From: Dimargaris cristalligena
Taxonomy: Eukaryota
Reading direction: 5' to 3'
Assembly (NCBI GenBank): GCA_003614675.1
Contig: ML002336.1
Location: 1 to 40,660 of the forward strand
Length of the DNA stretch: 40,660 nt
A program made the translations under genes and the position numbers. Below, piece after piece: positions 1-29,011 of this stretch (within the stretch, counting starts at the first letter, position 1; every line of letters starts with the position of its first letter). A model generated the notes under the pieces. That model saw only the letters and a program-made list of their open reading frames with translations, did no database searches and had not been told where the DNA came from.

Positions 1-1891
1 ATTGGATATCCCGCTTACTGTAATTGACCATGTCCAACGAAACGCGGAGGGTGGAGGCGCCGTAGAATTGGTAGGCCCCTTTGTACCGACCCCACAGCGA
101 GGAATTCAACAGGGTCACTTGGGCGGTGAGGGCCTGGTAGGCATGGACGATACCGCCGCCCTGTTGGGCCACGCTATGGTAGAGACCGTTGGCAAGACGG
201 ACGGGGGTACCGGTATTAAAGAGGGCCGAAACGAGGGTCTTGTTGGTGGATCCCTTGCCGGCTTCCAGTAACAGCGCGGTTACACCAGCCACATAGGGTG
301 CCGCCATGGACGTGCCGGACTTTATTCCGTATCCCCCCAGACTAGCGGGCAAGGTGGAGAAGACCCGCGAGCCCGGGGCGGCCAGATTGGGTTTGGCGCC
401 CCCGAATGGTGTCGGGCCCCAGCTCGAGAACCAGGACACGGTGTTCGCCGCCGGGTTATCAAACATGCTGTACTCGCTGCCCACCGTGATTTTGGTGGAG
501 GTGGCTGAAGAGGCAGTAGTGAGGGCGGAGAGTAGCTTCACACCATCCCGCTTTTCCACGGCGAAGACCGGTATGGTGATATCGGTGGTCAGGGCAACCT
601 CGAGCATCTCCTGGTCAATGTTATTGTAAATCAGCATTCCCACCGCACCGGCTTTGAGCAAATTGAGGGCCTTCGTATCAAACGGGCAAACGCCCCGCTG
701 GACCAGACCCACCTTACCGGCCATATTGCTCACCTCCGTGCAACCCAGATCGGTGCCCTGGGTGTCCCGAACCGATGCGAGGGACACGTTGGTTAAATTG
801 GCCGTCGCGTTGAATTGGCTCTGGAATGGCGTCCGGGCCATCTGCCACTTCGCATTAGGTGTCGTTACATTGACATAGTACGAGTAAAACTGCGGCGACT
901 CGGTTGCCCCCACTGAAATGCAGCTTGGAGCCACCGCGGGCGAGTTCATCGTGAACAAACCGCCCTGCCCGTCATTACCGGCCGCCACAATGACCATCCG
1001 TCCCTTAGCCATCAGGGCTTCGGCGGCCTGGGACTCGATCCAGGACTTCCAGCCGCTAGTAGTCCCGATGGACAAGTTGATGACATCCATATTGTCGGCG
1101 TAGGCCAGTTCCATGGCCCTGACCATCACATCGGAAGTGGTTAGTCCGGCGCAGCCCATCGCCTTGTAGATGCCCAAAGTGGCCTCAGGGGCCACCCCGC
1201 GGAACGGACCGTCGTCACCGGCGATAATCCCCGCCACATGAGTGCCGTGTCCCAAACAGTCATCGGTGGGCTTGGACTGGGGGGCCGGGTCGCTACCGGG
1301 TACAAAAGCTGGTCCTACTAAATCGGCACCATACTGCACGCGGCAGCCGGCCGTTTTATAGCACCGACCAAAGGCGGGGTGGTTAAGATCCAGTCCCGAA
1401 TCAATAATACCAATCTTGATGCCTTTACCCAGACGTTTCAGCTCCTGGTGGACCCGGGTGACCCCCGTGGCGGCATGTTCGAGCATCGGTAGGGGACTCA
1501 TGGTATGGTCAGGTAAACCCCCGGACGTGTCCAATGAGGTCAGTTCCAGACGCCAAATATCCGAAACGCTCCCCAGGCCGGCCATGGTTTCGGCGTGGTC
1601 CCGGTCGATTTTAATACTCTTGCCGTTGACCAGCGTGGTGTAGTTGTAGCGGACGGTAAAGGGAATGCCCGCGGTTTTCATTTGTTTATCAAAGTCACGG
1701 GCCGCTTGGCGACCCTCGGATGACTCCGGGTCGCCGGTAAATTGAACGACGAAAATGTTGGGGATAGCATTGAGCTGCCACTTGTCCATGGGGAACTGTG
1801 TGGTACCGGAAACGGGGGATTGGCCGTTGGACAGGGTTCCGGCGGCGAGCAGCGCCGCTGTGGTAAAAAGGGCCAAGCCTCGGTACATCAT
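1..1891 (-). CDS. Secreted subtilisin-like serine protease (S8A) with I9-like propeptide and PA domain; 3' end runs off the window
   Basis: Manually read minus-strand frame, not in the ORF track because no stop lies in the window. It starts at ATG 1891 (MMYRGLALFTTAALLAAGTLS, signal-like). Catalytic motifs: GIKIGIIDSGLDLNHPAFG (~1370-1425), GHGTHVAGIIAG (~1215-1250), VAAGNDG, SGTSMAAPYVAG (~285-320). PA-like GLVQRGVCPF and SWFSSWGP are also present. Confidence 0.93.
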   Translation of the reverse strand, partial: MMYRGLALFTTAALLAAGTLSNGQSPVSGTTQFPMDKWQLNAIPNIFVVQFTGDPESSEGRQAARDFDKQMKTAGIPFTVRYNYTTLVNGKSIKIDRDHAETMAGLGSVSDIWRLELTSLDTSGGLPDHTMSPLPMLEHAATGVTRVHQELKRLGKGIKIGIIDSGLDLNHPAFGRCYKTAGCRVQYGADLVGPAFVPGSDPAPQSKPTDDCLGHGTHVAGIIAGDDGPFRGVAPEATLGIYKAMGCAGLTTSDVMVRAMELAYADNMDVINLSIGTTSGWKSWIESQAAEALMAKGRMVIVAAGNDGQGGLFTMNSPAVAPSCISVGATESPQFYSYYVNVTTPNAKWQMARTPFQSQFNATANLTNVSLASVRDTQGTDLGCTEVSNMAGKVGLVQRGVCPFDTKALNLLKAGAVGMLIYNNIDQEMLEVALTTDITIPVFAVEKRDGVKLLSALTTASSATSTKITVGSEYSMFDNPAANTVSWFSSWGPTPFGGAKPNLAAPGSRVFSTLPASLGGYGIKSGTSMAAPYVAGVTALLLEAGKGSTNKTLVSALFNTGTPVRLANGLYHSVAQQGGGIVHAYQALTAQVTLLNSSLWGRYKGAYQFYGASTLRVSLDMVNYSKRDIQ

Positions 1892-4800
1892 GTTGCCTCA
1901 CGTTCGGATATAATAGGGAAGCTGGGCAGGTCCAGTCCAGGGGGTTTACTATCAGTACGATAGATGAATATAAAGAGTAAAATTAATGGAATAGGTAAAT
2001 AGCATAAAAACAAATTACGAGTAAGATGGGCATTAAATTGTGGTAGTTGAATGGCGTTTAATTACAGGGATAAAAATAATTTGTATAGTCGGCATTAATA
2101 ATAATAAACAGAAGCGGGTTGATGGGCGCCGGGCCTTCGGGGAGCTAGTAGGGCAATATAGCACCACAATATTGGTTATATAGATAAAATAAAACACATA
2201 AAGGTAAATTAGAAATGATGTGGCACTTAAGTATCGATGAGCAGGGCCAGTCGTTTATATGGAAACATGGTGAATCAAGCAGCACCCCCACACCCCCATG
2301 CTATCTCAACACGATCCAAGACAAAGAGTAACGGCCAGTCTTGTGCCAATTTACGTAGAAATTCATAGTTCGCGCGTCCATCATTGGTCGTGTCAATCAG
2401 TCTCTCTAGGTGGGAAAATGAACGCGGCTTTTCACCGGTAGGCCGGTGGGGCGATGGTCAGACTGGTACCTTCAATGTGCCCAAGCAAGGGTTGGCACTC
2501 ATTAGCCAGGGCCTTAGCCGGTACAAAAGGGACTGTACTATAGAAAAAGGGAGAGAGAGTGGGCTAGTATGGGCAAAAGGGTCTTCGCTGACGGCTCTGT
2601 ATCGGTGAGGCTTCCTCAGCCGTAAATCCTTTTGACTAACCTGGTCTTCACTCAGATAGGGTTAATCGCTCTTTTAACCAATCAATATTCACCGTAAATG
2701 GAGGTGTGATCCAATTTTAGAAAGATTAGTGGGTGAAGGTAATTCAAATTCCACTACCAGGGCGATTGGACGGTAGGCGTCCACTGGCTCTTTTGTACAC
2801 AATACTGGTCATCCCCTCTCCCCCTCCCCAAAGTAACGGTGCCTGGAGGAGTTTCAATACAACCGTTTATAGTAATTTTGCATAAAGTGGCGAAGGGGAT
2901 GGCCAATGGACGTTCCATGGTTTCAAGCCAGAACGACATGCTCCTGAAAATACTGTATCCGGTGTACTGTTAGGTTGGACTTAACATACATATGCAACAG
3001 CCTTTACTACGGGGAGCGCCTTATAATAAGAATAGTCCCACCAGCCTTGCAGGTACGACCTGGGTGTTGTAGAGATTTTCACCCGGTCATTACTAAAAAT
3101 AAATAAGTGGGCGAATTGGGCCAAGAGTCAGTAGATATTCTTAATTCACCATTACCAATATGACATTTGAAAGCACTATATTCGCCACTTGCACTTCAAA
3201 ATAATGTTCTATATTGCGAGATCAGACGGGGCTATAGAGTCGTATAAATAAATATGCGAACTTGTCTATTATATTATATATTTCATTTAACCACACTTAC
3301 CTTCAATTGAGGATTGGGTTTATTACAAGAGGAGTCAGGCTTGGAGACATTAGGTAGAATGTATGAACCCCGTGGACTATATTTGGTTTTTATCTTCCTG
3401 CTCAGCCATCCCTGCTTAACCACCAACTTAACCCAGCGCCTGACAGTAAACAAATGTCGTATATATCAAAAGGCTGTAGCTGTAACTGTCCCTGTTTAGT
3501 ATGACCAGTTGTTCGGAGTTCAATTGCATGGTGGAGACAAGTTAGGGGCTGCCCTCTCCACTCCCTCCGAAGTGCCGCTGGCACTAATAGATGCAGGGGG
3601 CAACCCCTCTCCCCAGACTTACACCTTGATTACAGAAAAAGAATGGCTCCAAAAACCCCAAGTTGATTTATGATTTGAAATAAGGAATATTAAAACTCTT
3701 GCTAATACTATACTTCATCTGGTCCCTAAAACTGGCAACATTCTCCCCGATTCTCACCAATGTCCGTCGTGCCTTCTAAAGAGGTAGCGCCGGATAGATT
3801 TTAATGCGTATTGGTGATTGATTGCCTTTGTGCCGATCAATTGAAGTTACCAAAAAGGGTACATGGATCCTGGCGTATATCTAAAGTAGCCCCGTGGTAA
3901 TTTTATAGTTCGTTTTTATTTCAGTTAAGTCTTTTTCTAAGAACGACCCCAGCCATTGACCCATCCTAGAATAGTATTTGGCTAGGCTTGAGTGTTATAC
4001 GTTTTAGATCGAAATTTCCTATTGAAGTAGTTTCCATAAAACTGCACTTTAGAATAAATATAGGTGTGATAGCGGGAAGGGAGGAGGGGCGAGGAATTAG
4101 AAAAGCAGGCTATTCATTTGGCTGAACAGGATGTGTGGGGGTCCCCCTAAATTACCTAATGATGCCATTCGTAGATGTGTTGAAAGAATAGAAGCGATAT
4201 GGGACTGCTTTGGCTTGATAATTCCGGGTACAATTTGACCATTTCAACATTCTATAACATCGTGGGGGAATCCTATTCCCAAATTAAATATTACACATGT
4301 CTCTGTGGTGACGAATTTGCCTCCCCATCCCCCCTGCCTGCATTTTATTGGACGCTGAGGAGTAGTTTCTTACTATGGCGGGAAGCCGAGTGGGGACTAA
4401 GTAAACTAGTAAACACCGAGGAGGGTTATTTATGGAGAAGATATATAAGTTTAAAATAAGTATTTTATTGAAACATGAAAATCTTTTGGGTACGTGAGTT
4501 GTCCCTTCTTTTATATCTATATCTCGGGTATCTGGGTAGAGTGACTGCCGTTCGTTGCTTGTTCTGAGGGGGCCGCTATAGTGAGGGAATTGGATGGAGC
4601 ATTCTCATTGGTTGGGATGAGGGGTCGTTCTGACTCGGGGTTGTCCGCCCCCTCTGAGGGTTGCATTACATCCATTCCCCCTTGCTTACTATGTCAGCAA
4701 CAGCAAGCTATTCCACCAAGCAGTTTCACACAGTACACTTGAGCAGAGGAATGTGGTGAGACATTTCATAAGCCAATTCCCATTCGAGCCCACAGGTGGA

Positions 4801-11841: not shown

Positions 11842-11973
11842 CTCGGTAGGACGGCTCCTCTACTTCGATAATTAAGTCATTGGTCTTCTCATCCTGCTTC
11901 ATCTCTATATAGGGTCTTCAATACTACACGCACTTCGTCATCCCTTTTTTATCCCACTCCTAAGTTAGTAACC

Positions 11974-13053
11974 ATGCGTCTTCTCCTTGCCTCCGCTGTG
12001 CTCGCCTGTAGCCTGACTTCGTCCTCGGCTGATAATGTGTGCTGGTATCCCACCTGCATGGTGCGGCGCGCGGACCCGATTGCCAAACCGAATGCGCCCA
12101 GTGGCTCCAATGACCCATCTAACGATGCCGGGGCCGAGGATGATACCGAAAACGACCCGAACGCGACCGAAGATTCGCCCCAAGACGACAATGCTGAGGG
12201 TGATTCCGGCAGTAACGGCCCCGACGCCGAAGATGGTGCTGATGGTGGCGACCCGAGTGCGACGGAAGACTTGGCCGGTGACCCCAACGCCGAGGAGGAT
12301 ATGGAGGGCAGTGACCCTAATGCCGAGGAGGGTACGGACGGCAGTGATCCAAACGCAGCGGACGATTCGAACGGGTCCGAGTCCTCCCCCAGCAGTATGC
12401 CTCCCTTCGTGGTGAAGATCCTGGCCGCATTGGAAGGGGTCGGAAACGACATGGAAACCGCCCCCATGACCGACGAAGCCCCGGAAGCCGAAGCTGAGCC
12501 CACGGGCGGGGTCAAGGCCCGGGCTGTCGACGAGACCACATCGGCGGTTCGACCCGTTCCGTCCTTCCCGTTGGCCGGTTTGCCGGATGTTCTCGATTCC
12601 ATCAGTACCAGACCCCCGGCCGAGCGGGTGACGCTCACCTCGGTGGTCTCGGTTACTGCGCCGGCCTCCTCGGTGACCCTCACCGTGACCTCGGAACTCA
12701 GCCATACGATTGAGAAGGAGAAGACCACCACTTCCACGTTTACCGCAACCGCAACCAAAACCTCAACCTCGACCCGTACCCGGACGGTCACCCGAACCAA
12801 GACGACCACTTCCTCGGCATCGGAAACGTCTACTACCAGTACGAGTACGCTCACCTCGACCAGCCAGACCACCACTTCGTTGACCTCGACGTCCTTCCTC
12901 CGGTCGTCTACAACGACGGCCAGTCTCCCCTCCCACGTGACTAGCTCGGACATCGGGGCGGGTGGATCGATTGTGCACGGGTCGGGTGCGATGGGTGGTC
13001 ACCTGGGCCTCCTCGCCGTGCTCGGGTACTGGTTGGCTACTGTTGCTTGGTAA
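11974..13053 (+). CDS. Secreted, probably GPI-anchored cell-surface protein (acidic DPNA repeats, Ser/Thr-rich stalk)
   Basis: Hydrophobic signal peptide MRLLLASAVLACSLTSSSA, D/E-rich repeats, a long Thr/Ser tract, and a C-terminal small-residue omega region plus hydrophobic tail (SSDIGAGG...HLGLLAVLGYWLATVAW). ACC-ATG start context. Confidence 0.8.
   Translation: MRLLLASAVLACSLTSSSADNVCWYPTCMVRRADPIAKPNAPSGSNDPSNDAGAEDDTENDPNATEDSPQDDNAEGDSGSNGPDAEDGADGGDPSATEDLAGDPNAEEDMEGSDPNAEEGTDGSDPNAADDSNGSESSPSSMPPFVVKILAALEGVGNDMETAPMTDEAPEAEAEPTGGVKARAVDETTSAVRPVPSFPLAGLPDVLDSISTRPPAERVTLTSVVSVTAPASSVTLTVTSELSHTIEKEKTTTSTFTATATKTSTSTRTRTVTRTKTTTSSASETSTTSTSTLTSTSQTTTSLTSTSFLRSSTTTASLPSHVTSSDIGAGGSIVHGSGAMGGHLGLLAVLGYWLATVAW
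12112..12366 (+). repeat. Degenerate coding tandem repeat D-P-(N/S)-A-(T/E/A)-E-D
   Basis: DPNATED, DPSATED, DPNAEED, DPNAEEG and DPNAADD units in the translated ORF. Confidence 0.75.
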
Positions 13054-16563: not shown

Positions 16564-18690
16564 TCCCCTACCCACTTCCTCTCTAGTCTACTCCGAATTT
16601 ACTGAATTTAATATACATATAGATATAGATATAGATATCGTCACTAATTGTTTAATGACATTGGCGTTGTGTTGGAAAGAGTTATACTTCACATGCTAGT
16701 CGCGATCGTTCCTATTGTCAGAGAAAATCAGCGTGACCCACGGGACTCCACTCCTATTTGTAAATTAGATACTTACTCAATATTATATTTTGTAGTAATA
16801 CTTCACGATGACCGCAGAAACAGTACACAAGTCAACCCCTTGGTTTCAGAAGCCCAGTGTCACGCCAGTGCCTTGTATTAGGTCATTAATGGCTGGTTCA
16901 AGCTAGTGGACCAACCATTACTGGGCCACTAATGATTATAATTACACGTGGCAGAGTCTGAATGCAATGATATTAACGTCAAAGTGACACAGTTGGGTAC
17001 TTTGAAGGACACAATCTCTAACAGTATATATAAAAACACCGCAGTGCTGGGGCCTAAAAAAAGAGAGGGTATACATGAGTATGTGCAAAAATATGCTGGG
17101 ACATTATCCATTGGCTCCTCAAGGGGCTCTGGTGGGATACTTATATTGACCTTGGATAACAGAAATGAGTGGTCTTAACATGGTGCCAATGTAGGTTTTG
17201 ACCAACCTTTAGAGTTACCACCGCTGCCACTCATGCAGGGTCTAAATCCATATACCGAAGATTCAACAGAATATTGGAGAACAAGGCTGTCAAAGCCACC
17301 CTTAGCTATATAATGTGGGAGAAGTTCATCCAAGCTGTATAACGAAAAATTCATTAGATTCGGCCAATATTACTAGTTAAAAATACATTTCCCATATATT
17401 TTCCCATACACGTATAATGTAAACCCTTATATAGCTGGGCCGAATTTTACCCATGTCTTTGGAGTCGTCGCTAAGCAATTAGTCATTGTGGCCTGAAGCT
17501 CTACCACCGATCCTGGAGTCCTAGTCGTACCGATGATTGCCGCATGCAACAGTCAGTATCCCTACAAATTAGGAGTAACTGTATCTTTTTGGCCCTCTTA
17601 TTGACATTTTCGTAAGTCAATCTTTTTCCTATATATTATTTTTGCCGTATTGCTGCATTTGATCGGCTTAAGATCCTAATGTGATTTACGTTCTTCATTT
17701 AGTTGTGAGAGTGACTTAATCTACCCATCTACAAGATCGTACTAACCCGCCAAAGGTTCGTTATCTTCAGTGTCGGCAACGAATAGTCACCCGACTTGAC
17801 TTGCCTATAGTATTCAAAAATATACAATGCGATAGTCGTGCCTATTCTTTCAAAAAACCAGGGCCTATTTCTGCAAGCCGTGGGGCGCTGAAAAGAGATG
17901 TAAGCAAAATAATAGAACTAATTAACGACTTAGACCATTTACTATCGTACGGTGAATGGTTTTAGTCTTTATATTCCAACGGGTGCTCTATGCATTAAAT
18001 GAATCATCCCTATTACAGTAAATCAAAATCTACCATAAATCCACAGTGACTGGCGAAAGATGATACCAATGGTAATCAATAATGACCGGCCCCAGAAACA
18101 CACACCTCTCAGCCAACGATCCGCACTTAAATTCGGCCGAAAATCTCAGCAGGCTGATTACCCGACAGAGGGATGGGGTAGAATGGAATAGGGGATGGGC
18201 CATTAGCCTTCCCATTTTCTGTTAACGTCCATTTCTAGGACTGATTTACGGACGAAATAATGCAGTAATATTATCCTTGCACCTCCCCTTCTCCAAACAA
18301 TCCTAGACACCAAGTTGCCAAGAGTTCCCTCTGAAGTAATATATAGGCCGTCGAGCCCGGCAACCCCCCCCTAAAGCTACCCCTACCTCTCTTAATCCAA
18401 TTAATTTTATGTGAATCCCCATTTATAATTACGTATCTCTAATATTTAATTTGTTGCCTAGTTATTACTTTAGTCTATCGATTTCTTTTTTAAGTAACTA
18501 TACATCGTGATTACTCTTTATAGTGGCCATAGTCTCGCCAGTCCGGCGAGGCCGATATTCCGCTCTTACAAATCGCAAGATTCCGCTTTTAGCTCTTTAT
18601 TAGGCCATTGGAGAGATGCATATATTTTTGTGTCCCAACTGCCCCTATCACTAATCAATCCACGTTGCACACTCCCTTAAATTGCCCCTA

Positions 18691-21456
18691 ATGGCTAGGA
18701 AGGGTCTAATTTGGCCCTCCTTGGGTTGCATTATATACTTCTGCTCGCATGTCCTAACATCCCCCAGTACGTCCACAACGGTACCCAACTATTACATAGT
18801 CAACCTCGAGGGTACCCCGGGTTCGACCGAGGCGCAAACAAGTTACCTTGGCATGGTCAACAAACTCCAGTCGCTCGGAATATCGTACACCAGCACCCAC
18901 AATTTCACCGAGCTCATCAACGCCGCCAGTTTCTACTTGGAAGACCAATATGTCGACGCGATTACTTCTTTGCCCATGGTCAGTGCCATTTGGCCAATGC
19001 GTCTCACCAGTTTAGATAGAACCCCCCTCTCGGCCAATAGTGCCACTAATCAAACCGCCTCCTCCCTAACCCGGCCCCCGCGTGCACTATTGGAGCACTA
19101 CTACACGGGTGTAAACTTCGCCCACCAAGCCCCCTATAATCTCACCGGCCGTGACATCAAAGTCGGTGTTATCGATTCGGGAATAGACTACCACCACCCG
19201 GCTTTTGGTTCATGCTATAAAACGCCCGGTTGCCGCATCCAATATGGCTACGATTTTGTGGGCGACCAATTTAACGGCACCAATGTCCTTCAACCCGACG
19301 ACGATCCGCTGGATACATGCAACGGGCACGGCACTACCGTGACCGGTATATTAGCTGGTTATGACAGCGGTACGGACGGTGAAGAGACGTATAAAGGGGT
19401 GGCCCCGGATGCGATACTGGGTATTTATCGGGCGCTGGGCTGTTCCGGATTGACCAACAGCGTGGCATTGATTCGGGCGATTGAGCAAGCGTACGTCGAC
19501 GGTATGCAAATCATCAATATTTCGGTGGCCACGGCCAGTGGGTGGGATGCATGGTCAGAGGCCAAAGTGGTCCAGGAATTCAGCAACCGGGGCCGTATTG
19601 TCGTTTCAGCCGCCGGTAACAGCGGTCTGGATAACATGTGGAGCGTGTCGTCGCCGTCGATTGCGCTAGGGTGTATATCGGTAGGGTCGGCTGAAATGCC
19701 GCGCCATTATTCCTATTATTTGGATATTCAACCCGAGTCTTCGTCAAACGCCTCCCATTCCGATGGCCAAAACAATACGGTCCAGGTCCAACGGAGTGAT
19801 TGGCAAGCCCAGTTACCACCACTCAATCTCCAGAATGTGGCCCTGGTACGGGGTCTGAATGACGAGGGTGACGACTTCGCCTGCACCAGCCTACCTTCAC
19901 TTACCGATAAAGCTATCTTGGTCCAGAGGGGCACTTGTAGTTACAACGTCAAAGCCAAAAACGCCCAAGCCGCCGGAGGGGTCCTCCTTATCATCTACAA
20001 CAACGAGCCGGGAACAATGGCCGACATGGATTTGAATAATACTATCACTATACCGGCCGTCTCCATCTACCAAGTCGACGGTTTGGTTCTTGTCCAAAAC
20101 CTGACCACCTCCGAATACTCTAGTGACCCGCCGACCTTGTCAGTGTCGACCAATCCCATCGATGTGGCCGTATTTGACAATTATTTACCGAATTCGGTAT
20201 CCTGGTTTTCATCCTGGGGACCGGCTGCCGGAAACCACCTCAAACCCAATCTGGTGGCCCCGGGTAGTAAAATCTATTCGCCCCGCCCGCTCAATTTAGG
20301 CACGTACGATTTGGCTTCGGGCACCTCCATGTCTTCCCCCTACGTTGCAGGAGTCGCCGCCCTCCTATTGCAGCAAATGAGTGCCATCTCTGTCAGTAGT
20401 GGGGATGATTCGAACTACACCGACGTGTTCGCCCGTATTGTCCACACTGCTGATGTGATTCGAATGGCCCAAAACGGGACGGCTCTGTCCGTTGCCCAAC
20501 AGGGCAACGGGGTCATCAATGCTTTGAGGGCTCTTCAGACTGCTGAACTATTTGACCAGCTGAGCTTGAACGCCGGCTTCCGGAACCAGTCTCTCTCCTC
20601 TTCATCCGATTCAGAGTGGTCATACTCCGTGAGCGTGTGCCATACCGACCAGTCCGCGCCTTCCACAACTTACCAAATAGAGTACATTTCCGCTCTTTCA
20701 GTGACAGCGTTCGACGACGACAATGTTTTGCTTCCAATTCCTTTTCCGGGTGCTAGCCAACCGACGATTGGCTTCGACCTAGAAAACACTACCAAGGGGA
20801 TTACGGTGGAGAGTGGACAGTCCTGTACCGGCCTGACTTTCTCTGTGGATATATCCAATCTCCCGTCCGATCATTTCTGGCTCTACAGTGGCTATATCCA
20901 TGTCTATTCCTCCACCAACCTGACCAACGACTCGCCGTTTGGGCTGCCCAATCCCCTAGCGGGCCCTGTTAGCAGCATCACCCTCCCACTCCAGGGCTTC
21001 AGTATCGCTTTAGACGACCTGCCTATGTTTTCCAACCTCCCCGCCGACCAGCCCCAACTCGTCCACCCCGACACAAATGACCCAGTAACTCCGGGAACCG
21101 CCTTTTCTTTCCAAAACTTGGATCGACCGGTCATTCAGCTGCGCGTCCAAATCCCCCTCTACCGCATTCGCATTCGGATTGCTAAGCCCGAAACCCCCAA
21201 TCACCCGTCATTTACGGCCACCGAAAACCAGCTCACTTACCTCAAGAAAATTGTGGACGGGACGGGGGGCGGCACGTACAAGTATACATGGAATGGATCG
21301 GTGTATACGTTTTTGAATCCGGAGAAGGTGTTTGCGTTGTTTGATCGGGAATGGGTACTGCAGTTGCTGTTTACTTCCGATGGGGCGGAGGGGGCCCCGG
21401 AAAAGTATTGGTATTCGCCAACTTTTAAGACGAACAGGGGGATAACAAATTCATAA
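18691..21456 (+). CDS. Secreted subtilisin-like serine protease (S8A) with I9-like propeptide, PA domain and C-terminal beta-rich extension
   Basis: First ATG at 18691 followed by a signal-like segment. Catalytic motifs VGVIDSGIDYHHPAFG, NGHGTTVTGILAG, SAAGNSG, SGTSMSSPYVAG. PA-like ILVQRGTCSYNVKAKNAQAAG. Paralog of the gene at 1-1891. Confidence 0.93.
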   Translation: MARKGLIWPSLGCIIYFCSHVLTSPSTSTTVPNYYIVNLEGTPGSTEAQTSYLGMVNKLQSLGISYTSTHNFTELINAASFYLEDQYVDAITSLPMVSAIWPMRLTSLDRTPLSANSATNQTASSLTRPPRALLEHYYTGVNFAHQAPYNLTGRDIKVGVIDSGIDYHHPAFGSCYKTPGCRIQYGYDFVGDQFNGTNVLQPDDDPLDTCNGHGTTVTGILAGYDSGTDGEETYKGVAPDAILGIYRALGCSGLTNSVALIRAIEQAYVDGMQIINISVATASGWDAWSEAKVVQEFSNRGRIVVSAAGNSGLDNMWSVSSPSIALGCISVGSAEMPRHYSYYLDIQPESSSNASHSDGQNNTVQVQRSDWQAQLPPLNLQNVALVRGLNDEGDDFACTSLPSLTDKAILVQRGTCSYNVKAKNAQAAGGVLLIIYNNEPGTMADMDLNNTITIPAVSIYQVDGLVLVQNLTTSEYSSDPPTLSVSTNPIDVAVFDNYLPNSVSWFSSWGPAAGNHLKPNLVAPGSKIYSPRPLNLGTYDLASGTSMSSPYVAGVAALLLQQMSAISVSSGDDSNYTDVFARIVHTADVIRMAQNGTALSVAQQGNGVINALRALQTAELFDQLSLNAGFRNQSLSSSSDSEWSYSVSVCHTDQSAPSTTYQIEYISALSVTAFDDDNVLLPIPFPGASQPTIGFDLENTTKGITVESGQSCTGLTFSVDISNLPSDHFWLYSGYIHVYSSTNLTNDSPFGLPNPLAGPVSSITLPLQGFSIALDDLPMFSNLPADQPQLVHPDTNDPVTPGTAFSFQNLDRPVIQLRVQIPLYRIRIRIAKPETPNHPSFTATENQLTYLKKIVDGTGGGTYKYTWNGSVYTFLNPEKVFALFDREWVLQLLFTSDGAEGAPEKYWYSPTFKTNRGITNS

Positions 21457-21558
21457 ACTATTTTCCGCAGGAATACATGTTAAGTTGTACGAGGAGTACT
21501 GGAGGGATTGGTTTTTCCCGAAATATCCGTTTTGAAGTAATGCAATACTATAATTAAG

Positions 21559-22419
21559 TTACATTAAGTTCCAATTGCCTTTTGTGAGGGGAGTGAATTT
21601 AAAAGCAGTTGGCACTCTTTATAAGAAGGCGCTGTCCTTGCCTGTGGGATTCCCAAATTCCTCTAGACAACTATTACATGGCAACCTCGGGCTTGACATT
21701 TTAATGACTATCATGTGTGATAGTCCCACTGAAAGAACCAGGCTCCTTGGTTTATTGGCTGAAGCTTGAACTGTGACTATTAATTATTTAGCAACGACTT
21801 GGACAATGCTCTTCAATTGCGTGTGGTTAGCAACCCTGTTTTCTAATATCCCACCAAGGCTCCATGAGGAAATTGCGGTCTATATCACAATTTCATTATG
21901 TACACTTCTATACGTTCTCATTTCTTCGGTGCATGGCGCACGGGTATTTAAATATATGGTGTCAGAGAGCACTTCCGCCAGAGTACCTCGCTCTAACTCT
22001 ATTTCCCCTATGACTATATCCAGACAACTGCTTAACCAATACCATCTCAACAAAATAATCTCGTGTGGAATCCAATATTCTCTTTGTGGTGGTTTCCATT
22101 GCCAGTCTACTGAGTATCCCCCACTCATTTCCCTCCGTATAGCATTGTCGAAAGACCCCACGGTCATTAACTGCAACCTATAAATAGGGAATTTTGTGTG
22201 TTTTAGTAAGCATCCCATGTGGGTTAATGCAGCACTTGAGTAGCTAACCCCAGCAACAAAAATATCGACTATAAGGCCAGTTGTTCTCCAGGAAAGATAA
22301 ATACATAAAGGGAAAGTATAACCATACAACATATATGAATTAGCTGGTGACTTTGGGGAATACCTACTGGAATAGGTAAACCTGGACACAGTATCTTTTC
22401 CAACTGGTAGTGGGTGCAA
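21559..22419 (-). pseudogene. Decayed coding relic of unknown family
   Basis: The 21880-22419 ORF frame continues past stops at 21880-82 (TAG), 21784-86 (TAA) and 21619-21 (TAA) with protein-like sequence (TAISSWSLGGILENRVANHTQLKSIVQVVAK*LIVTVQASANKPRSLVLSVGLSHMIVIKMSSPRLPCNSCLEEFGNP...) to a TAA at 21559. No recognisable family. Confidence 0.4.
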
Positions 22420-24258
22420 TGGGGGGAGGGAGGGGGGGTGGATAACAAGTACCCTAGTTAGTCCTTGTAGTTAACTACTAACACATAAATAGTATGCACC
22501 ACTTCTGCTCAAAGTGTGGATTATAGGAAGCACTGGATTTCTAGCAGAAGGAAAGAGGGAAAAAAATCAAGGGGGAGAGGGTACCCATGAGGTATCCATG
22601 GACTACTTTGGCCACATCTCCTTATTACTGATGGGTTTAATATCCACTGGCATCATAAATTCACCCAAATTTGTGAACACATAGGCGGTACTTAAACATG
22701 GGGTATAGGGGGGGGGGAGTATAGAGCTATTTGTGGATTCAGATGAAGTAGAGTTTTATTTAAAGTGAATATAAGGTAGGCAACCTTTTGGTCATAATTT
22801 ACCATCCACAGGGAACATATTAAAGGGTAAGTGGCTCAAAAACCCTCAAAAGCTACATATAAAGAGGGAAAGGACATGGGGAGGATAATAAACAGACCCT
22901 GGGAAGAAATCAGGCCCTTATAACAACCTACCCAACTTAGCTGGATAGGGGTTATTATTATTATCAGTAAAGTGGGGGGCCACAGGACAAGGTCTTTGCT
23001 AAGGTAGAAAAAATAGTGCTAAACTAAGTAACTAGCCTATTGGACTATCTAATCTACCTTAATCTAGACACAGTGGTGTCCATCTCCATTAGGCCTTATA
23101 GCACCATATTAACCTTCCCATGGTCACCCCCAGTACTATGGGATCATCCCCTATCATATAACTATTTCCCTTTTAGGCTCTGCTGCTTTGTACTAATTAC
23201 TCTGGTGCTGATCTGAAGACTCTTCTGGTTACTATCAGAGTCTTTTAAGTCCTCATGGTTATCTGGTTGGCCTATTTATCTTATCCTAGTCTTAGTAGTA
23301 TCCTTCTCTTGGGACCTCCCTCTGGAGTCATCCCCACATATATATAACTGGGCCCCATTGGGACCAGTTTGGGGCCTTAGCTTATTATTATCCCCTAGTT
23401 TATCCTAATAAACCCTATATACACTCATCACCCTTGTATTGACTAGTAAGTGTGCTCACTACATGTCCTTTACCTGTACCTACATTTTGTAGCCTTTATT
23501 AGTTAGTACTATGCCCCCTACCTAATGCCAAGACCCACTTAGCCCAGCCCAAGCCCCATCTGCCATTAGAAGCCTATCCTTAGGACTCTTGACTGACTAA
23601 GAGTGGTTAACCTAGGCAATAGTACAGTACTACAGTTTATTTTATGGGAGGGTAGTGATAAAAAAGTATAAAATGAGCAGGGTGTCTTATGCTAAGTAGC
23701 TGAGCATCATCTTTTAATAACTTTCTCTGTGCATTGGATTATTCAGCCCCATATCCACACTCTCTCATATCCACTTGGTTCACAAAATTCACACCAGACT
23801 ATTTCTGTAATAACTTAGCTGCCTGTAGTACCCATCCACTTCACCTGTCTGTATTTACTCTGTTAAACTGAGACTTACCTGAACCTCCACCATACAACCT
23901 CAGCATATAAACCTTCTTGCTCTGGTTACCCTTAGTCTCTCCCCCAACAGCTACAACTGGGTTAGTGCAATGGAAGACAAACAGCCTGGTGATGGATTGA
24001 TGAAAAACTTCATGATGAAACTGCACAGCATTTTTGGTGGTAAAGGTGCCCCTAGCCCAAGCTATACAAAGGCTGATCTACCTGAATGGGACTATGAAGG
24101 CATCTTAGACTGGGATTTGGGACCTGAGCCCACTGGAAGAAAGTGGACCTCCAAAGAAATACTGAACTATATATCTGAGCAACCCATTGCACCAGTCCTG
24201 GTAAGTCTTAAATGTATTTTACATACCCCACCATGGCTAAATAGATATAACTCATATT
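22268..24258. other. CpG desert (methylation- or RIP-like mutated domain)
   Basis: By eye, only one CG dinucleotide (22686) in about 1,990 bp, although C and G runs are plentiful. Flanking genes are CpG-rich. Confidence 0.85.
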
Positions 24259-25854
24259 CGCATGCCTGGATAGGGCGCACCAATGAATTAAAGGGACTTG
24301 CCAAGGAATACCCTAATCTGTAGCTGTGTAGCAGCAACTCCGATATTTTCATAACCATTGATGTCTGTTCTATCCACACTATGCATATATGTAGATGACA
24401 AGCATGAATGTCATACAAAAAATCTACCCCTCTTGACATAGTGTGCTATTTCTATATGGATACTAATTTGCGCCTTAACTACACGTATTATTTCATCCAC
24501 TCACAACTAGAAAACTTACCGTCAATTGCAAGTTGCCTTGAAAGCCTACCCCGAACTTTCCGAATCGGGTTATGCATCGGGGAATGTGGTTTCTAATGAG
24601 CTTCCTTGGCCCAAACGTATAACAATGATACCCAAGTTCAAGAAATCGGTCCGGAATTCATTTGTTCCCTGGTAAACACTGCTCCATTACCAATTGGCCG
24701 TCGGATACTGGAGACAAACCTGTCGCATGATAGAAATCGTTTATGGTATGGATGTCGATACATTAGACCTATCAAAATCAATCAGTGCTACCAAGAAACT
24801 TGATGCCTTCGAGATCAAGGCAATTGCCCAAGGTAGTGGCGTCCTCAAAAAGGATGCATATCGATTCATCGATCTGACCGAGCTATGGAAATTGGACCCA
24901 GCAAAGCAGTTACCGTTCTTGGCTCTTGTCGACTTCGCTACCAATCCCGAAGATATTGTCAATCTTTTTTACGACCTGGTTAACCGTTCATTTGATTTTC
25001 TCGTTCATCGGGACTGGGCCAAACAGTTCCCGGCGCTCAAATATGGGGACGGCCCCCTGTCGGATTTGGTCAAACAGTTTCAGCTTAAGAATCTCAGGCT
25101 TGAAGCGGGATTTACTTACTGGGATATGTTTGAGAGCGTGACGGCCATTATAATGGCATGGTTGGCCCTAACGGAGAAATTCGATTACATGGATTTCTTG
25201 GTGAAAAATATTCAAAGAGCTGGAAAGCATTACGCCAATGGCGCTGTTCGTAAACAGACAACCAAGAACCTCGAAGCGGCGGGCATAATGCTGTTGGCTA
25301 TGACTGAACAAGGTAATCGTATTGATAATATGTTATACTTCTTCTCATTTATTGGACCCGATGAATCTAAGGCAATTAATGACCCCAAGCCGAGTGTCGT
25401 GGATTGCAGTATAATCGGTGAAATGCGCCAACTTGGTTTAATCAAGGGTGCGGACTATCTTGAGAAAACCAAGGAATGCAAGAATTCTGAAGATTCCGCT
25501 AAATATTTTGCTGGCAAAATAGCCAATCCGGATTTTGCGCCCCTCCGGCAGCTGCGACTTCTGGAAGAAGTTGACAAGCCTTGTATGAGCGTACCGGTTA
25601 TGATTTCAGAGTTTGATGCGAATACCAAAAGTCAGCTTGCGGACTTGGGGCCTTGGGAACATGATACATATTGGAAGTTGGGGCAATCGTTTGCTGACAA
25701 TCATAGCCATAAATATTGGATGATCGGGAATTCGGTTGATAAGGACACTGAAGATGTGAATTTGGCGACTGGGCAATCACCAGATGACGCCCACAAAAAT
25801 GCACCGACGACGGATGGGATATGGTATACTGAACTTAACCCCGATTTGCAGTAG
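23892..25854 (+). pseudogene. Disrupted gene for a lineage-specific secreted (effector-like) protein; reconstructed exons 23892-24200, 24294-24362, 24511-25854
   Basis: ccACC-ATA at 23892 opens a signal-peptide-like frame (IQPQHINLLALVTLSLSPNSYNWVSA) continuous with ORF 23970. Donor GTAAGT at 24201. Exon 2 has an in-frame TAG at 24321-23. The acceptor CTAG at 24510 starts a frame (KTYRQLQVALKAYPELSESG...) continuous with the 386-aa ORF except for a TAA at 24673-75. Exon 2 boundaries (AAG acceptor, GTCTGT donor) are weak. Confidence 0.6.
24694..25854 (+). CDS. Remaining intact 3' reading frame (386 aa) of the hypothetical secreted protein
   Basis: Long open frame with globular, helical composition and normal CpG content, followed by a T-rich 3' region. 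No recognisable domain. Confidence 0.55.
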   Translation: MAVGYWRQTCRMIEIVYGMDVDTLDLSKSISATKKLDAFEIKAIAQGSGVLKKDAYRFIDLTELWKLDPAKQLPFLALVDFATNPEDIVNLFYDLVNRSFDFLVHRDWAKQFPALKYGDGPLSDLVKQFQLKNLRLEAGFTYWDMFESVTAIIMAWLALTEKFDYMDFLVKNIQRAGKHYANGAVRKQTTKNLEAAGIMLLAMTEQGNRIDNMLYFFSFIGPDESKAINDPKPSVVDCSIIGEMRQLGLIKGADYLEKTKECKNSEDSAKYFAGKIANPDFAPLRQLRLLEEVDKPCMSVPVMISEFDANTKSQLADLGPWEHDTYWKLGQSFADNHSHKYWMIGNSVDKDTEDVNLATGQSPDDAHKNAPTTDGIWYTELNPDLQ

Positions 25855-28800
25855 AACCAAATCCAGTATGCTCGTTTACCAATATTATTTCACGATATTT
25901 TCCTCTATTTTATTTTTCAACTCACTTTCGTTTATTTAGTTAGACGACTTTGCTTTGTATATGTATGCTCCCTCCGTAGAAATAAATATCTATTAAATTA
26001 ATCATATTTGACCATTATTGTGCTATTGGGTACTTTGAGATAACTATTCCGACTATGCGCTCTGGTGTGGAAGTAGGTGGTGGTGTTATTAGAAATAAGT
26101 ATCTCTCTTCAGTTTAATTGCCGATAGGGGGGGTTCCAGTTCAAATTTAAGGAATAGTACCTTCAAATACATGGAAAACACCAAATGTGAGTTTTTGGTA
26201 GGATACACTTGCTTAACTATGTCACCTACCTGTAACAATATACCATAGGGCCCTTCGAAAGCGTATTTTATTAGCAGCATATAAATAAACAAAAAACGGA
26301 GGCACCTTACTCTTTTTTTTTTGCTGCTAGTTGTTAGGGTGAGCGTATGGTAGCAACATTTATAATGCCTTGGACTGATTATAGCTTAAATGGCACGCGT
26401 AAATCGTTAACAAATGTCAGTTTGAAATAAACTTATCTCATTTATCAGATAGGTGAGCCCCCAAACCAACGGACCAAGGGAGCTTCAATGGTTCGGCGCT
26501 CGAACACCACATGTAAATCCATTGAGTGGAATTCTACTAGGCTGGGATGACTGTCAACGGGGATTTGGTTGTAATCGAGGAGTGGTACCAACCATAGGGA
26601 AGATTACGTCTAAACAAAGGGTATTAACCAGTGGTAGACTTATAGTACGTACTATTGAATATACTGGGGAATCAATAGGAGGTGACCTGGAGGAGTATTG
26701 AAGGACCTCGTAGGACGGACAAATTAGAAAAAAGAATGGCAGCATTGGAGGGTACCCTCTGACCACGGGAAGGCGCTCAGAGAAATGGTGGAAACTGGCG
26801 GAGTAGGCCTCTAAGTATCGGTAGGGATAGGTAATGGATTGCATGTATAGTATTGGACGTTGCTATAGGATAAATACCGTGGCAGTCATGGAGCCGGTTA
26901 TGCTTCACTGTAACATATAATACCCATTTGTTTCAAAGGTGTCAATATCAGCATTAGTTTAGGGTGACAGGGGCATCGATGTTTTTAGCATGTTCCCAAC
27001 GGGCTATAAAGGCACGGTGTCGTATTTATCTAGCAGGCTAGGTGTCGTAGGTTGAATTATAGAAAATATTAAAACGCCCTATTCCTAGGACAAGTCCATA
27101 GAGGGACATTGGAATCATGGTTTCAAATCGTACTTTATAAAATAATGAATGGGAGTACTAGGGGTTATTTGATCAGTAAGTTAAACAGCGAGGAGCAATT
27201 GAATAATTGATCCATTAACTGGGGCTAGGTAATATATATATGTATGGCTTTATAGGGCCAAGCACACAGTTGGGCCATACAACAGGGCCAGTTAAGATGG
27301 TGTTAAAGGACACTACCAGAAGATAAGGCACGTAGATAATGGATAGTGAATAAGTGGTGATAGAGTACGGATGTTTAATAGACGCATGAGAAAGACCGGG
27401 GGGGGGTTCAAAGGCGATTAAACTGCTTCGGCCATTGATATACTGCGTCCCATGGATAAGACCTGGGCAGTTCAGAAACTGCGACTTGGATGTCATCAAT
27501 TTTAAGATTATTCGTTAAATACGATGCATTATATACTGCTATATTATTAGACGCCCTTCGCAACATGGGTTTGAGCAACCTTAAGACTATTATTATTTGG
27601 TGTAGGCTATTCTGGTACGTATGGGAGGTTATAACTTGTGGTGGGAATCAAATGTTTATTCGTGGGGTTATACATGACTAAGCGCTTGGGATTCGGGGGA
27701 ATCTATTTATATGATATGCCGACAGATGAGGCGGATGTGTTCATAAGATCTCTATCGATATTTATACCGCCAACTATGAATCGTGAAGCTAGGAGTGGGG
27801 GTAGTCCAACAATACAGCACCATAAACAGGAACGTTCTTTGGAAGACTGGAGATGTAATACTATGCAAGTAGGAGATACACCGGGCCATTGATAAGAGAT
27901 ATATATTGAACAGTATACTAACCGGAAGCCTTCGCCAGGCTTAGGGTGGAGGCTATGTGCCCTGCAACGGAGTGCTTGTCTGGTGAGGAGAAGTTAAGGT
28001 GGACCTGGTATAAGGGGAAGAGATGTTGTTTGGCCGGGTTGGTTTCCAGTGCAGTTTGCATTAGTTCCGCATTGACCATACAGTTAGGCCAGGCAGCCCA
28101 TCCGCTACACAAGGCATACTGTCCCGTCTCCTTCTTATTATTTTCTTTTCTTTTTTTCATTCAATTGTGGTGTAAAAAGACCAGCGGCCGGGCTGGAAAC
28201 AGAAGATGGTGTGTTGTACCAGATTGCCGCTAGTACATTTAATACACGGGGCTTATTAAACCCCGACCCAAAGCATACGCCATGCTGAAGCCCGCGGCCA
28301 GGGGAAGCGGAACCGACCATACTTGGAAAGATTGGTGTGGGCCCAGGAGCATTAAAGTGCTGTACATATGCAAACATTGCTACAGACGTGGGAAGGCGGT
28401 AGATGGGCACACCAGCTAGCCATAGATGCCAACCCAACCTCTTCTTGGCTTTAATACCTCAGTAATCTGCCGCCCCATATACATCATCACCACCCACTCC
28501 ACTCTATTACTACATACTTCTCGTATATACCATCTCTATTTACATACAACGTACCTTTGGAAAACCCCCCAAAGTATGAATCTTCCCCTTATTGGGGGAT
28601 CGCAGTTCTGTTTGACCCCGGTTAACAAGGTGCCTCGGACCACGGCTGCTGACAGAGGACGACGGCGCCATGAGTCTCTGGCGGCATTTTGGAACTGGTG
28701 GCTGCTGCAGTGCCGGTACACCCGGCTAAAAGTTGGGTCACAAAAATAGAACGCACTCACCTTGGGCTATGCAGAGTCGCTCAATAGTGCAATCCCGACC

Positions 28801-29011
28801 GACATGCCCATTGTTTCATGGCTATAGGAAGAAACTGGGCCTCTCTATACGGGGCCGCTTCGTTGGCAGTGAAGGGGGCGGATACTATCTCCAATCTCTC
28901 TTTTTTTTGCCCCTTCCACCCGCCCCCTCCCCCTTGGGTCCATGGGGAAGTAAATCCCTCGCCAGTGGCCAGAAATTCCTAACGGAGGTTACCGGTAGTT
29001 GGGGAATACCT

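What the first reader, a model, noticed from the sequence alone, without database searches (positions are those of the whole stretch)
22268..24258. Sharply bounded ~2 kb CpG desert: footprint of a targeted cytosine methylation/mutation system
Seen: a single CpG (22686) in about 1,990 bp that still has abundant CC and GG. TA, TG and CA dinucleotides are common. CpG returns abruptly at 24259 and is frequent in all neighbouring genes. Known: 5mC deamination erases CpG, and RIP in Dikarya produces dense C->T changes in duplicated DNA. Inference: a localized silencing and hypermutation domain acted here, centred on the region between two divergent decayed genes and not on a recognisable transposon. 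A RIP-like process aimed at multicopy secreted-protein genes in an early-diverging fungus would be notable.
Basis: partly seen in the sequence, partly recalled or inferred. Interest (0 to 1): 0.8.

Follow-up and report, generated by a model that had tools for sequence, protein, structure and literature searches.

The report
CpG-eroded repeat relic in Dimargaris
A 2-kb stretch of this early-diverging fungus has lost nearly all its CpG sites because its centre is a high-copy repeat, which is the expected scar of repeat-directed cytosine methylation and is of modest, not exceptional, interest.

Summary
Window 22268-24258 (1,991 bp, 41.7% GC) holds 1 CpG, against 87 expected from base composition or 72 from the window's own AT-rich DNA (P about 4e-30). 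No other 860-bp stretch of the window falls below CpG o/e 0.50.

The reading "not on a recognisable transposon" is wrong. In contigs from 4 public DNA runs, about 22740-23600 is a high-copy dispersed repeat: 613-1464 contigs were laid per run, most of them 90-95% alike. The two flanks lie on long single-copy contigs that bridge both borders. Listed differences to other copies are 35 transitions to 5 transversions, and only 2 of 40 would give another copy a CpG.

The neighbouring GWT1 protein is 100% identical to one that NCBI names as from Dimargaris cristalligena (Zoopagomycota), so "early-diverging fungus" holds. The neighbouring subtilase paralogues are intact, CpG-normal and only 40% identical, so they were not the target.

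Best reading: repeat-directed CpG methylation followed by deamination, reaching about 0.5-0.65 kb into the flanks. 5mC confined to transposons is already reported in early-branching fungi. A weaker CpA-to-TpA, RIP-like signal is confined to the repeat core and is the only potentially new element. No methylation data or DNMT gene could be checked here.

The parts
22268..24258 (.). CpG desert: 1 CpG in 1,991 bp
22737..23594 (.). Core: member(s) of a high-copy, non-coding dispersed repeat. Borders are approximate (copies start near 22739 and end near 23619). CpG 0, TG+CA o/e 0.88, TpA 1.35, CT+AG 1.30. Holds the highest composite RIP index in the window.
   Evidence: summed depth rises 10- to 1000-fold; 613-1464 contigs laid per run; single-copy contigs stop at 22634-22767 and restart at 23563-23583. 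No TIR, LTR or tandem structure, no Rfam or tRNA match, no Pfam hit.
22268..22736 (.). Left flank: single-copy at >=90% likeness, with 1 CpG (22686). Purine- and G-rich (GG o/e 1.83), TpA 1.25.
23595..24258 (.). Right flank: single-copy, 0 CpG. Missing CpG (about 20) is matched by the TG+CA excess (about 17).
22686..22687 (.). The only surviving CpG
21568..22267 (.). Left shoulder: partial CpG depletion (16 against 29.9 expected). TG+CA o/e is 1.16 over 21457-22267.
24259..24458 (.). Right shoulder: 3 CpG against 8.3 expected
23970..24200 (+). CpG-free ORF of 77 codons followed by GTAAGT. Possibly a first exon, but unsupported: weak frame signal, no homologue, and no in-phase acceptor found by eye into the downstream ORF.
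21880..22470 (-). 196-codon ORF across the left border. No coding signal and no Pfam hit; probably not a gene.
24727..25854 (+). Orphan ORF (375 aa) just right of the desert. CpG is normal; its only hit is the window's own gene call.
18655..21456 (+). S8 subtilase with PA domain. Intact and CpG-normal; it ends about 810 bp left of the desert.

Best explanation
The desert is the mutational scar of repeat-directed CpG methylation. A non-coding, high-copy dispersed repeat sits in the AT-rich spacer between a subtilase gene and an orphan ORF. Its CpGs, and those of about 470 bp of DNA to the left and 665 bp to the right, were kept methylated over a long time. Spontaneous deamination of 5-methylcytosine then removed them until a single CpG remained.

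Shown: the CpG void; the repeated nature of the core; the single-copy nature of the flanks at 90% likeness or more; transition-dominated divergence among copies; low CpG in the other copies; the TpG/CpA balance in the right flank; partial depletion in the shoulders.

Inferred: that 5mC was the cause; that the species has a DNMT1-, DNMT5- or Dim-2-type enzyme; and that the flanks lost CpG in place through spreading of the methylated domain, as opposed to being older repeat fragments that are now unique.
For: 1. CpG-specific loss: o/e 0.012, with GpC at 0.74 and GC% equal to the neighbouring DNA.
2. The core is a high-copy repeat in 4 of 4 runs.
3. Of 40 listed differences to other copies, 35 are transitions and only 2 would create a CpG elsewhere, so the family as a whole is CpG-poor.
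4. The right flank lacks about 20 CpG and has about 17 extra TpG+CpA.
5. Both shoulders are partly depleted, and TG+CA is raised there (1.16 and 1.19).
6. Other intergenic DNA in the window is only mildly depleted (o/e 0.50-0.8), so this is targeted and not a genome-wide state.
7. Literature passages: 5mC confined to transposons in early-branching fungi (PMC12695648); CpG-signature C-to-T decay of fungal TEs attributed to 5mC deamination (PMC3318451; PMC4352252); Kickxellomycotina relatives carry CDCA7F, which that preprint says almost always co-occurs with DNMT1.
Against: - No methylation data and no DNMT gene could be examined, because no genome is held.
- Over the whole desert the roughly 61 missing CpG are not balanced by TpG+CpA (+4). 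The excess is in CT+AG (+65) and TpA (+24).
- The borders are sharper than a simple spreading gradient predicts.
- The three blocks differ in composition, and strand skew flips near 23050. This also fits a composite insertion.
- Contigs do not prove that both flanks join through this very copy, because the unitigs in the core are short.
Confidence: 0.6

Rival explanations
1. RIP-like, homology-triggered C-to-T hypermutation of duplicated DNA acted on this repeat family at CpG and CpA, and leaked into the flanks.
For: - Ts:Tv is 35:5 among listed copy differences.
- Where this copy has C/G and others have T/A, 12 of 19 sites are CpA/TpG, against 26% expected (p = 6e-4).
- The core has TpA/ApT 1.375 and (CpA+TpG)/(ApC+GpT) 1.0.
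- The composite RIP index peaks on the core at 0.45-0.53. Outside the desert the maximum is 0.29 and the median -0.18 over 722 windows.
- A mixed CpG plus CpA signature is reported for Tuber TEs (PMC4352252).
Against: - GC is not lowered (41.5% against 41-43% beside it).
- CpA+TpG is only mildly low in the core (0.88) and is raised in the right flank (1.23).
- The reverse class is not enriched (7 of 15 against 40% expected), and major-to-minor polarity is balanced at 18:16.
- The 40 differences are the tool's best-supported subset, not all differences.
- CpG loss covers single-copy DNA.
- RID is listed for Ascomycota only in the 2026 review's table.
- The TpA richness could simply be the element's own composition.
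Confidence: 0.15
2. The whole 1,991 bp is a composite insertion of mobile DNA that was already CpG-poor when it arrived. Either old repeat fragments are now too diverged to be seen as repeats, with a younger high-copy element nested in them, or the element came from a CpG-poor donor. In this reading nothing was eroded at this locus.
For: - Very sharp borders (CpGs at 22266 and 24259; change points).
- Three compositionally distinct blocks, and a purine/pyrimidine flip near 23050.
- Whole-desert TpG+CpA shows no excess.
- The other copies are also CpG-poor.
Against: - The flanks are single-copy at 90% likeness or more in 4 of 4 runs.
- No terminal repeats or target-site duplication were seen.
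- Partial depletion and a TG+CA excess continue beyond both borders.
- The right flank balances as in-place deamination.
- This reading still needs a CpG-eroding process somewhere in the family's history.
Confidence: 0.2
3. Artefact: an assembly chimera, contaminant DNA or amplification chimera.
For: - Contig depth of the two flanks differs several-fold within single runs.
- Unitigs across the core are short, so the join through the core is not independently shown.
Against: - Both desert borders lie inside long contigs with 0-1 differences: the left border in 4 of 4 runs, the right in 3 of 4, from 3 samples and 2 studies.
- Exact-match unitigs at single-copy depth cover most of the core.
Confidence: 0.03

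Closest known systems
Transposon-confined 5mC in early-branching fungi and other unicellular eukaryotes (5mC on TEs, 6mA on expressed genes)
   Same: A repeat-centred, CpG-specific footprint beside CpG-normal genes. The host is an early-diverging fungus.
   Different: Only the mutational scar is seen here; methylation itself was not measured. I found no methylome or DNMT report for Dimargaris. Search 'dimargaris'+'methylation' gave 13 papers, 11 listed, none with the topic in title or abstract; I read passages of one. Search 'dimargaris'+'dnmt' gave 0 papers.
CpG-signature C-to-T decay of TEs in Dikarya (Tuber, Microbotryum, rusts, Agaricomycotina), attributed to deamination of 5mC laid down by Masc2/DNMT1-type enzymes
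   Same: Transition bias, CpG as the main target, and repeats as the substrate (passages in PMC3318451, and PMC4352252).
   Different: A different phylum. CpG removal is near-total (o/e 0.012) and extends into single-copy flanks. A TpCpG preference could not be tested without aligned copies.
Canonical RIP (Neurospora type, RID-dependent, CpA to TpA)
   Same: The repeat core has the window's highest composite RIP index and an excess of CpA/TpG-context differences.
   Different: No drop in GC, CpA barely depleted, CpG as the main loss, balanced polarity, and single-copy flanks affected.
CpG depletion in and around vertebrate TEs with AG/CT enrichment
   Same: CT+AG rises by about as much as CpG falls (+65 against -61). 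The preprint's abstract reports depletion strongest in TEs and weakening with distance (10.64898/2026.09.02.747768; abstract only).
   Different: That work concerns vertebrate genomes with global methylation. Here the background is almost undepleted.

Membership tests
Repeat-directed CpG methylation with 5mC deamination decay | Loss specific to CpG, not to GpC or to G+C | tested here: met
   CpG o/e 0.012, GpC 0.74, GC 41.7% as in neighbouring DNA
Repeat-directed CpG methylation with 5mC deamination decay | The target is repeated DNA | tested here: met
   The core at 22737-23594 is high-copy in 4 of 4 runs. The flanks (1,133 of 1,991 bp) are single-copy at 90% likeness or more.
Repeat-directed CpG methylation with 5mC deamination decay | Lost CpG reappears as TpG/CpA | tested here: inconclusive
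   Right flank: -20 CpG, +17 TG+CA. Core: -26, -15. Whole desert: -61, +4.
Repeat-directed CpG methylation with 5mC deamination decay | Other copies of the family are also CpG-poor | tested here: met
   Only 2 of 40 listed differences would give another copy a CpG. This is a partial view, not full copies.
Repeat-directed CpG methylation with 5mC deamination decay | 5mC is present on the repeats | not testable with these tools
   No bisulfite, EM-seq or nanopore data; all 5 listed runs are DNA kept as contigs
Repeat-directed CpG methylation with 5mC deamination decay | A DNMT1, DNMT5 or Dim-2 gene is in the genome | not testable with these tools
   No genome held. Only indirect evidence: CDCA7F in the Kickxellomycotina relatives Coemansia and Linderina.
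Canonical RIP | C-to-T transitions with CpA preference among copies | tested here: inconclusive
   12 of 19 against 26% expected (p = 6e-4); the reverse class is 7 of 15 (not significant); polarity 18:16; selected subset of sites
Canonical RIP | RIP indices: TpA/ApT high and (CpA+TpG)/(ApC+GpT) low. The usual cut-offs of 0.89 and 1.03 are recalled, not taken from a call. | tested here: inconclusive
   Core: 1.375 and 1.00. Whole desert: 1.26 and 1.09. The window's own background already sits near the cut-offs (0.91 and 1.08).
Canonical RIP | AT enrichment of the mutated DNA | tested here: not met
   GC 41.5% in the core against 41.3-42.9% in the flanks and shoulders
Canonical RIP | RID/Masc1 homologue | not testable with these tools
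   No genome held
Classifiable transposon (LTR, TIR, SINE, coding TE) | Terminal repeats, a tRNA/7SL/5S head, or TE protein domains | tested here: not met
   No LTR or TIR. 0 tRNA genes, and 1 sub-threshold Rfam hit. 0 Pfam families at E<=0.01 in the 7 ORFs of 60 aa or more that lie in the desert.

The most novel reading that the evidence does not exclude
Dimargaris runs a two-layer cytosine defence. A homology-dependent, RIP-like CpA-to-TpA mutator is confined to the duplicated core. A heritable CpG-methylated domain overshoots the repeat by about 0.5-0.65 kb into unique DNA, including the putative promoter and first exon of a neighbouring orphan gene. A RIP-like process outside Dikarya has not been described in the papers I saw.
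Probability: 0.12. Interest if true: 0.65.

Novelty: new member of a known kind. Interest (0 to 1): 0.3.

Why it matters
Cytosine methylation in zygomycete-grade fungi is little studied. One 2026 review calls 5mC there 'near-undetectable', while another paper reports 5mC confined to transposons. A near-total, sharply bounded CpG void on a high-copy repeat is indirect but strong evidence that Dimargaritales have, or long had, an effective repeat-directed CpG methylation system.

It also gives concrete loci to test for 5mC: CpG 22686 and the two shoulders. The core-restricted CpA/TpA signal is a cheap, testable hint of a RIP-like process outside Dikarya. As a single locus it is otherwise an ordinary instance of a known phenomenon.

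Tried and rejected
- Whole-genome background: no genome is held, so only the 40.7-kb window served as background.
- Copies within the window: none found by blastn or tblastx.
- Internal structure: no TIR, LTR or tandem structure and no internal similarity.
- RNA families and tRNA: one sub-threshold Rfam hit (FTX_1, E 0.29), treated as chance; 0 tRNA genes.
- Expression: no RNA holder is listed for the stretch, so nothing can be said about it.
- Earlier findings of this scan: three look-ups returned nothing.
- Gene status of the ORFs in the desert: no Pfam family at E<=0.01. The exon-1 ORF got two library hits, which turned out to be an 11/33 chance match to a segment repeated eight times in a cadherin read-through, and a weak hit to an S-layer/lectin protein. 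The atlas search on the orphan ORF gave only scores below 0.9.
- A joint '23613 to 23048 with 11 letters between' has depth far below single copy (7-63), so I did not read it as a tandem or LTR junction.
- Bewick et al. 2019 is not held. One search call failed on a term that was too long.
- Supplements are closed. The per-species DNMT tables behind the CDCA7 preprint and the fungal DNMT surveys may already answer whether this species has DNMT1 or DNMT5.

Full report
**Observation**

The stretch 22268-24258 (1,991 bp, 41.7% GC) contains one CpG, at 22686. Base composition predicts 86.6. The CpG rate of the window's other low-GC DNA (10.5 kb, o/e 0.81) predicts 71.9, giving Poisson P(<=1) = 4.5e-30. 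GpC is only mildly low (o/e 0.74), and CC and GG are abundant (1.48, 1.80).

The two CpG gaps in the desert are 1,573 and 420 bp; the next longest gap in the window is 193 bp. In 860-bp windows, all 22 inside the desert have CpG o/e <= 0.028. The 722 that do not overlap it have a minimum of 0.50 and a median of 0.93, and the 214 low-GC ones have a median of 0.77. A genome-wide test was impossible because no genome is held.

The borders are sharp, with change points at 22170-22270 and 24250, but each has a shoulder. 21568-22267 has 16 CpG against 29.9 expected, and 24259-24458 has 3 against 8.3.

**What lies there**

I laid the contigs of 4 public DNA runs (3 samples, 2 studies, one coded organism) on 21500-25000.
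- Long contigs with 0-1 differences cover 21500 to 22634-22767, and 23563-23583 to 25000.
- Between about 22740 and 23600 the summed depth rises 10- to 1000-fold, and 613-1464 contigs per run were laid. In run X1, 123 were 99% or more alike, 185 were 95-99% and 305 were 90-95%.
- The centre of the desert is therefore a member of a high-copy, somewhat diverged dispersed repeat family. The 469 bp to its left and 664 bp to its right are single-copy at 90% likeness or more.
- The left desert border is bridged in 4 of 4 runs and the right one in 3 of 4, so the borders are not assembly joins.
- The join through the core itself rests on short unitigs and is not independently proven.

The repeat has no LTR, TIR or tandem structure. 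It has no tRNA or Rfam match above threshold, no Pfam match, and no second copy in the window. I could not assign it to a TE class. Two motif scans of metagenome contigs, meant to fetch other copies, found nothing.

**Surroundings**

The window's GWT1 ORF is 100% identical to a protein that NCBI names as from Dimargaris cristalligena. The next hits are other Dimargaritales at 45-54% identity.

The desert lies in an AT-rich spacer, between an intact S8/PA subtilase gene (18655-21456) and an orphan ORF (24727-25854) whose only hit among 5.8 billion proteins is the window's own gene call. The two subtilase paralogues in the window share 40% protein identity, are open, and have normal CpG. They are not the target.

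Two ORFs reach into the desert, and neither is supported as a gene.
- The minus-strand ORF 21880-22470 has no coding signal.
- The plus-strand ORF 23970-24200 ends at a GTAAGT and has a weak frame signal. Its only library hits are chance matches.

The 'two divergent decayed genes' are therefore unsupported.

**Mutational signature**

One search lists 40 differences between this copy and other copies; 6 more were not shown. Of the 40, 35 are transitions and only 2 would give another copy a CpG. The family as a whole is CpG-poor and diverges by transitions.

The three blocks of the desert differ.

| Block | Missing CpG | TG+CA excess | Other features |
|---|---|---|---|
| Right flank (single-copy) | about 20 | about +17 | the balance expected from in-place 5mC deamination |
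| Core (high-copy) | about 26 | -15 | TpA +21, CT+AG +37 |
| Whole desert | about 61 | +4 | CT+AG +65 |

The CT+AG rise is unexplained. A 2026 preprint abstract reports AG/CT as the strongest correlate of CpG loss in vertebrates, and depletion strongest in TEs (abstract only).

A second, narrower signal sits on the core alone.
- The composite RIP index peaks there at 0.45-0.53. Outside the desert the maximum is 0.29 and the median is -0.18.
- Where this copy has C/G and other copies have T/A, 12 of 19 sites are CpA/TpG, against 26% expected (p = 6e-4).
- The reverse class is not enriched (7 of 15 against 40% expected), and major-to-minor polarity is balanced at 18:16.
- GC is not lowered in the core (41.5%).

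**Interpretation**

The best reading (confidence 0.6) is repeat-directed CpG methylation followed by deamination over a long time. It affects the repeat and a few hundred bp on either side.

This fits passages I read in the literature.
- 5mC is confined to transposons in early-branching fungi (PMC12695648).
- CpG-signature C-to-T decay of fungal TEs is attributed to 5mC deamination rather than RIP (PMC3318451; PMC4352252).
- The Kickxellomycotina relatives Coemansia and Linderina carry CDCA7F, which that preprint says almost always co-occurs with DNMT1.

Against it:
- Neither methylation nor any DNMT gene was examined here.
- The whole-desert mass balance fails.

Rival readings:
- A composite insertion that was already CpG-poor (0.2). 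This is partly a variant of the same process acting elsewhere.
- A RIP-like process (0.15). This is not exclusive of the best reading.
- Artefact (0.03).

**Novelty**

This is a new instance of a known kind of footprint, in a lineage for which I found no methylation or DNMT report. The search 'dimargaris'+'methylation' found 13 papers, 11 listed, none on the topic by title or abstract; I read passages of one. The search 'dimargaris'+'dnmt' found 0 papers.

Bewick et al. 2019 was not held, and supplements are closed. Their per-species tables may already cover this species.

The only element that could be new is the core-restricted CpA/TpA signal. It needs aligned genomic copies to test.

Noticed in passing
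window 2-1897 (-) and 18655-21456 (+): Two S8 subtilase genes with a PA domain, 40% identical over 586 aa. Both are open and CpG-normal, so they are old paralogues. The nearest atlas clusters are fungal Fn3-like/PA subtilases.
   Followed up: partly
window 24727-25854 (+): Orphan 375-aa ORF with a coding-like frame signal but atypical composition: GC3 0.49 against 0.62-0.65 in conserved genes, TpA/ApT 0.6-0.75, and (CA+TG)/(AC+GT) 1.35-1.44. It has no homologue even in the other Dimargaritales present in the database.
   Followed up: partly
window 12001-13000: A 62.5% GC stretch with GpC o/e 0.65 and long open frames on both strands (11872-13053 +, 11949-12998 -).
   Followed up: no
window 22421-22439 and 22709-22719: Long G runs inside the left flank. 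There is a one-base length difference at 22708 in 3 of 4 runs.
   Followed up: no
window 22268-24258: CT+AG is enriched by about as many sites (+65) as CpG is missing (-61), while GA+TC is depleted (o/e 0.69-0.84). Unexplained.
   Followed up: partly
window 21500-25000 in runs X1 and X3: The two single-copy flanks differ several-fold in contig depth within one run (418 against 1380 in X1; 9 against 106 in X3). Coverage in these libraries is very uneven.
   Followed up: no
window 21457-29000: About 7.5 kb of 40-46% GC DNA with no conserved gene, between the subtilase gene and the next GC-rich segment. ORFs of 90 aa or more at 26089-27514 have no Pfam family.
   Followed up: partly
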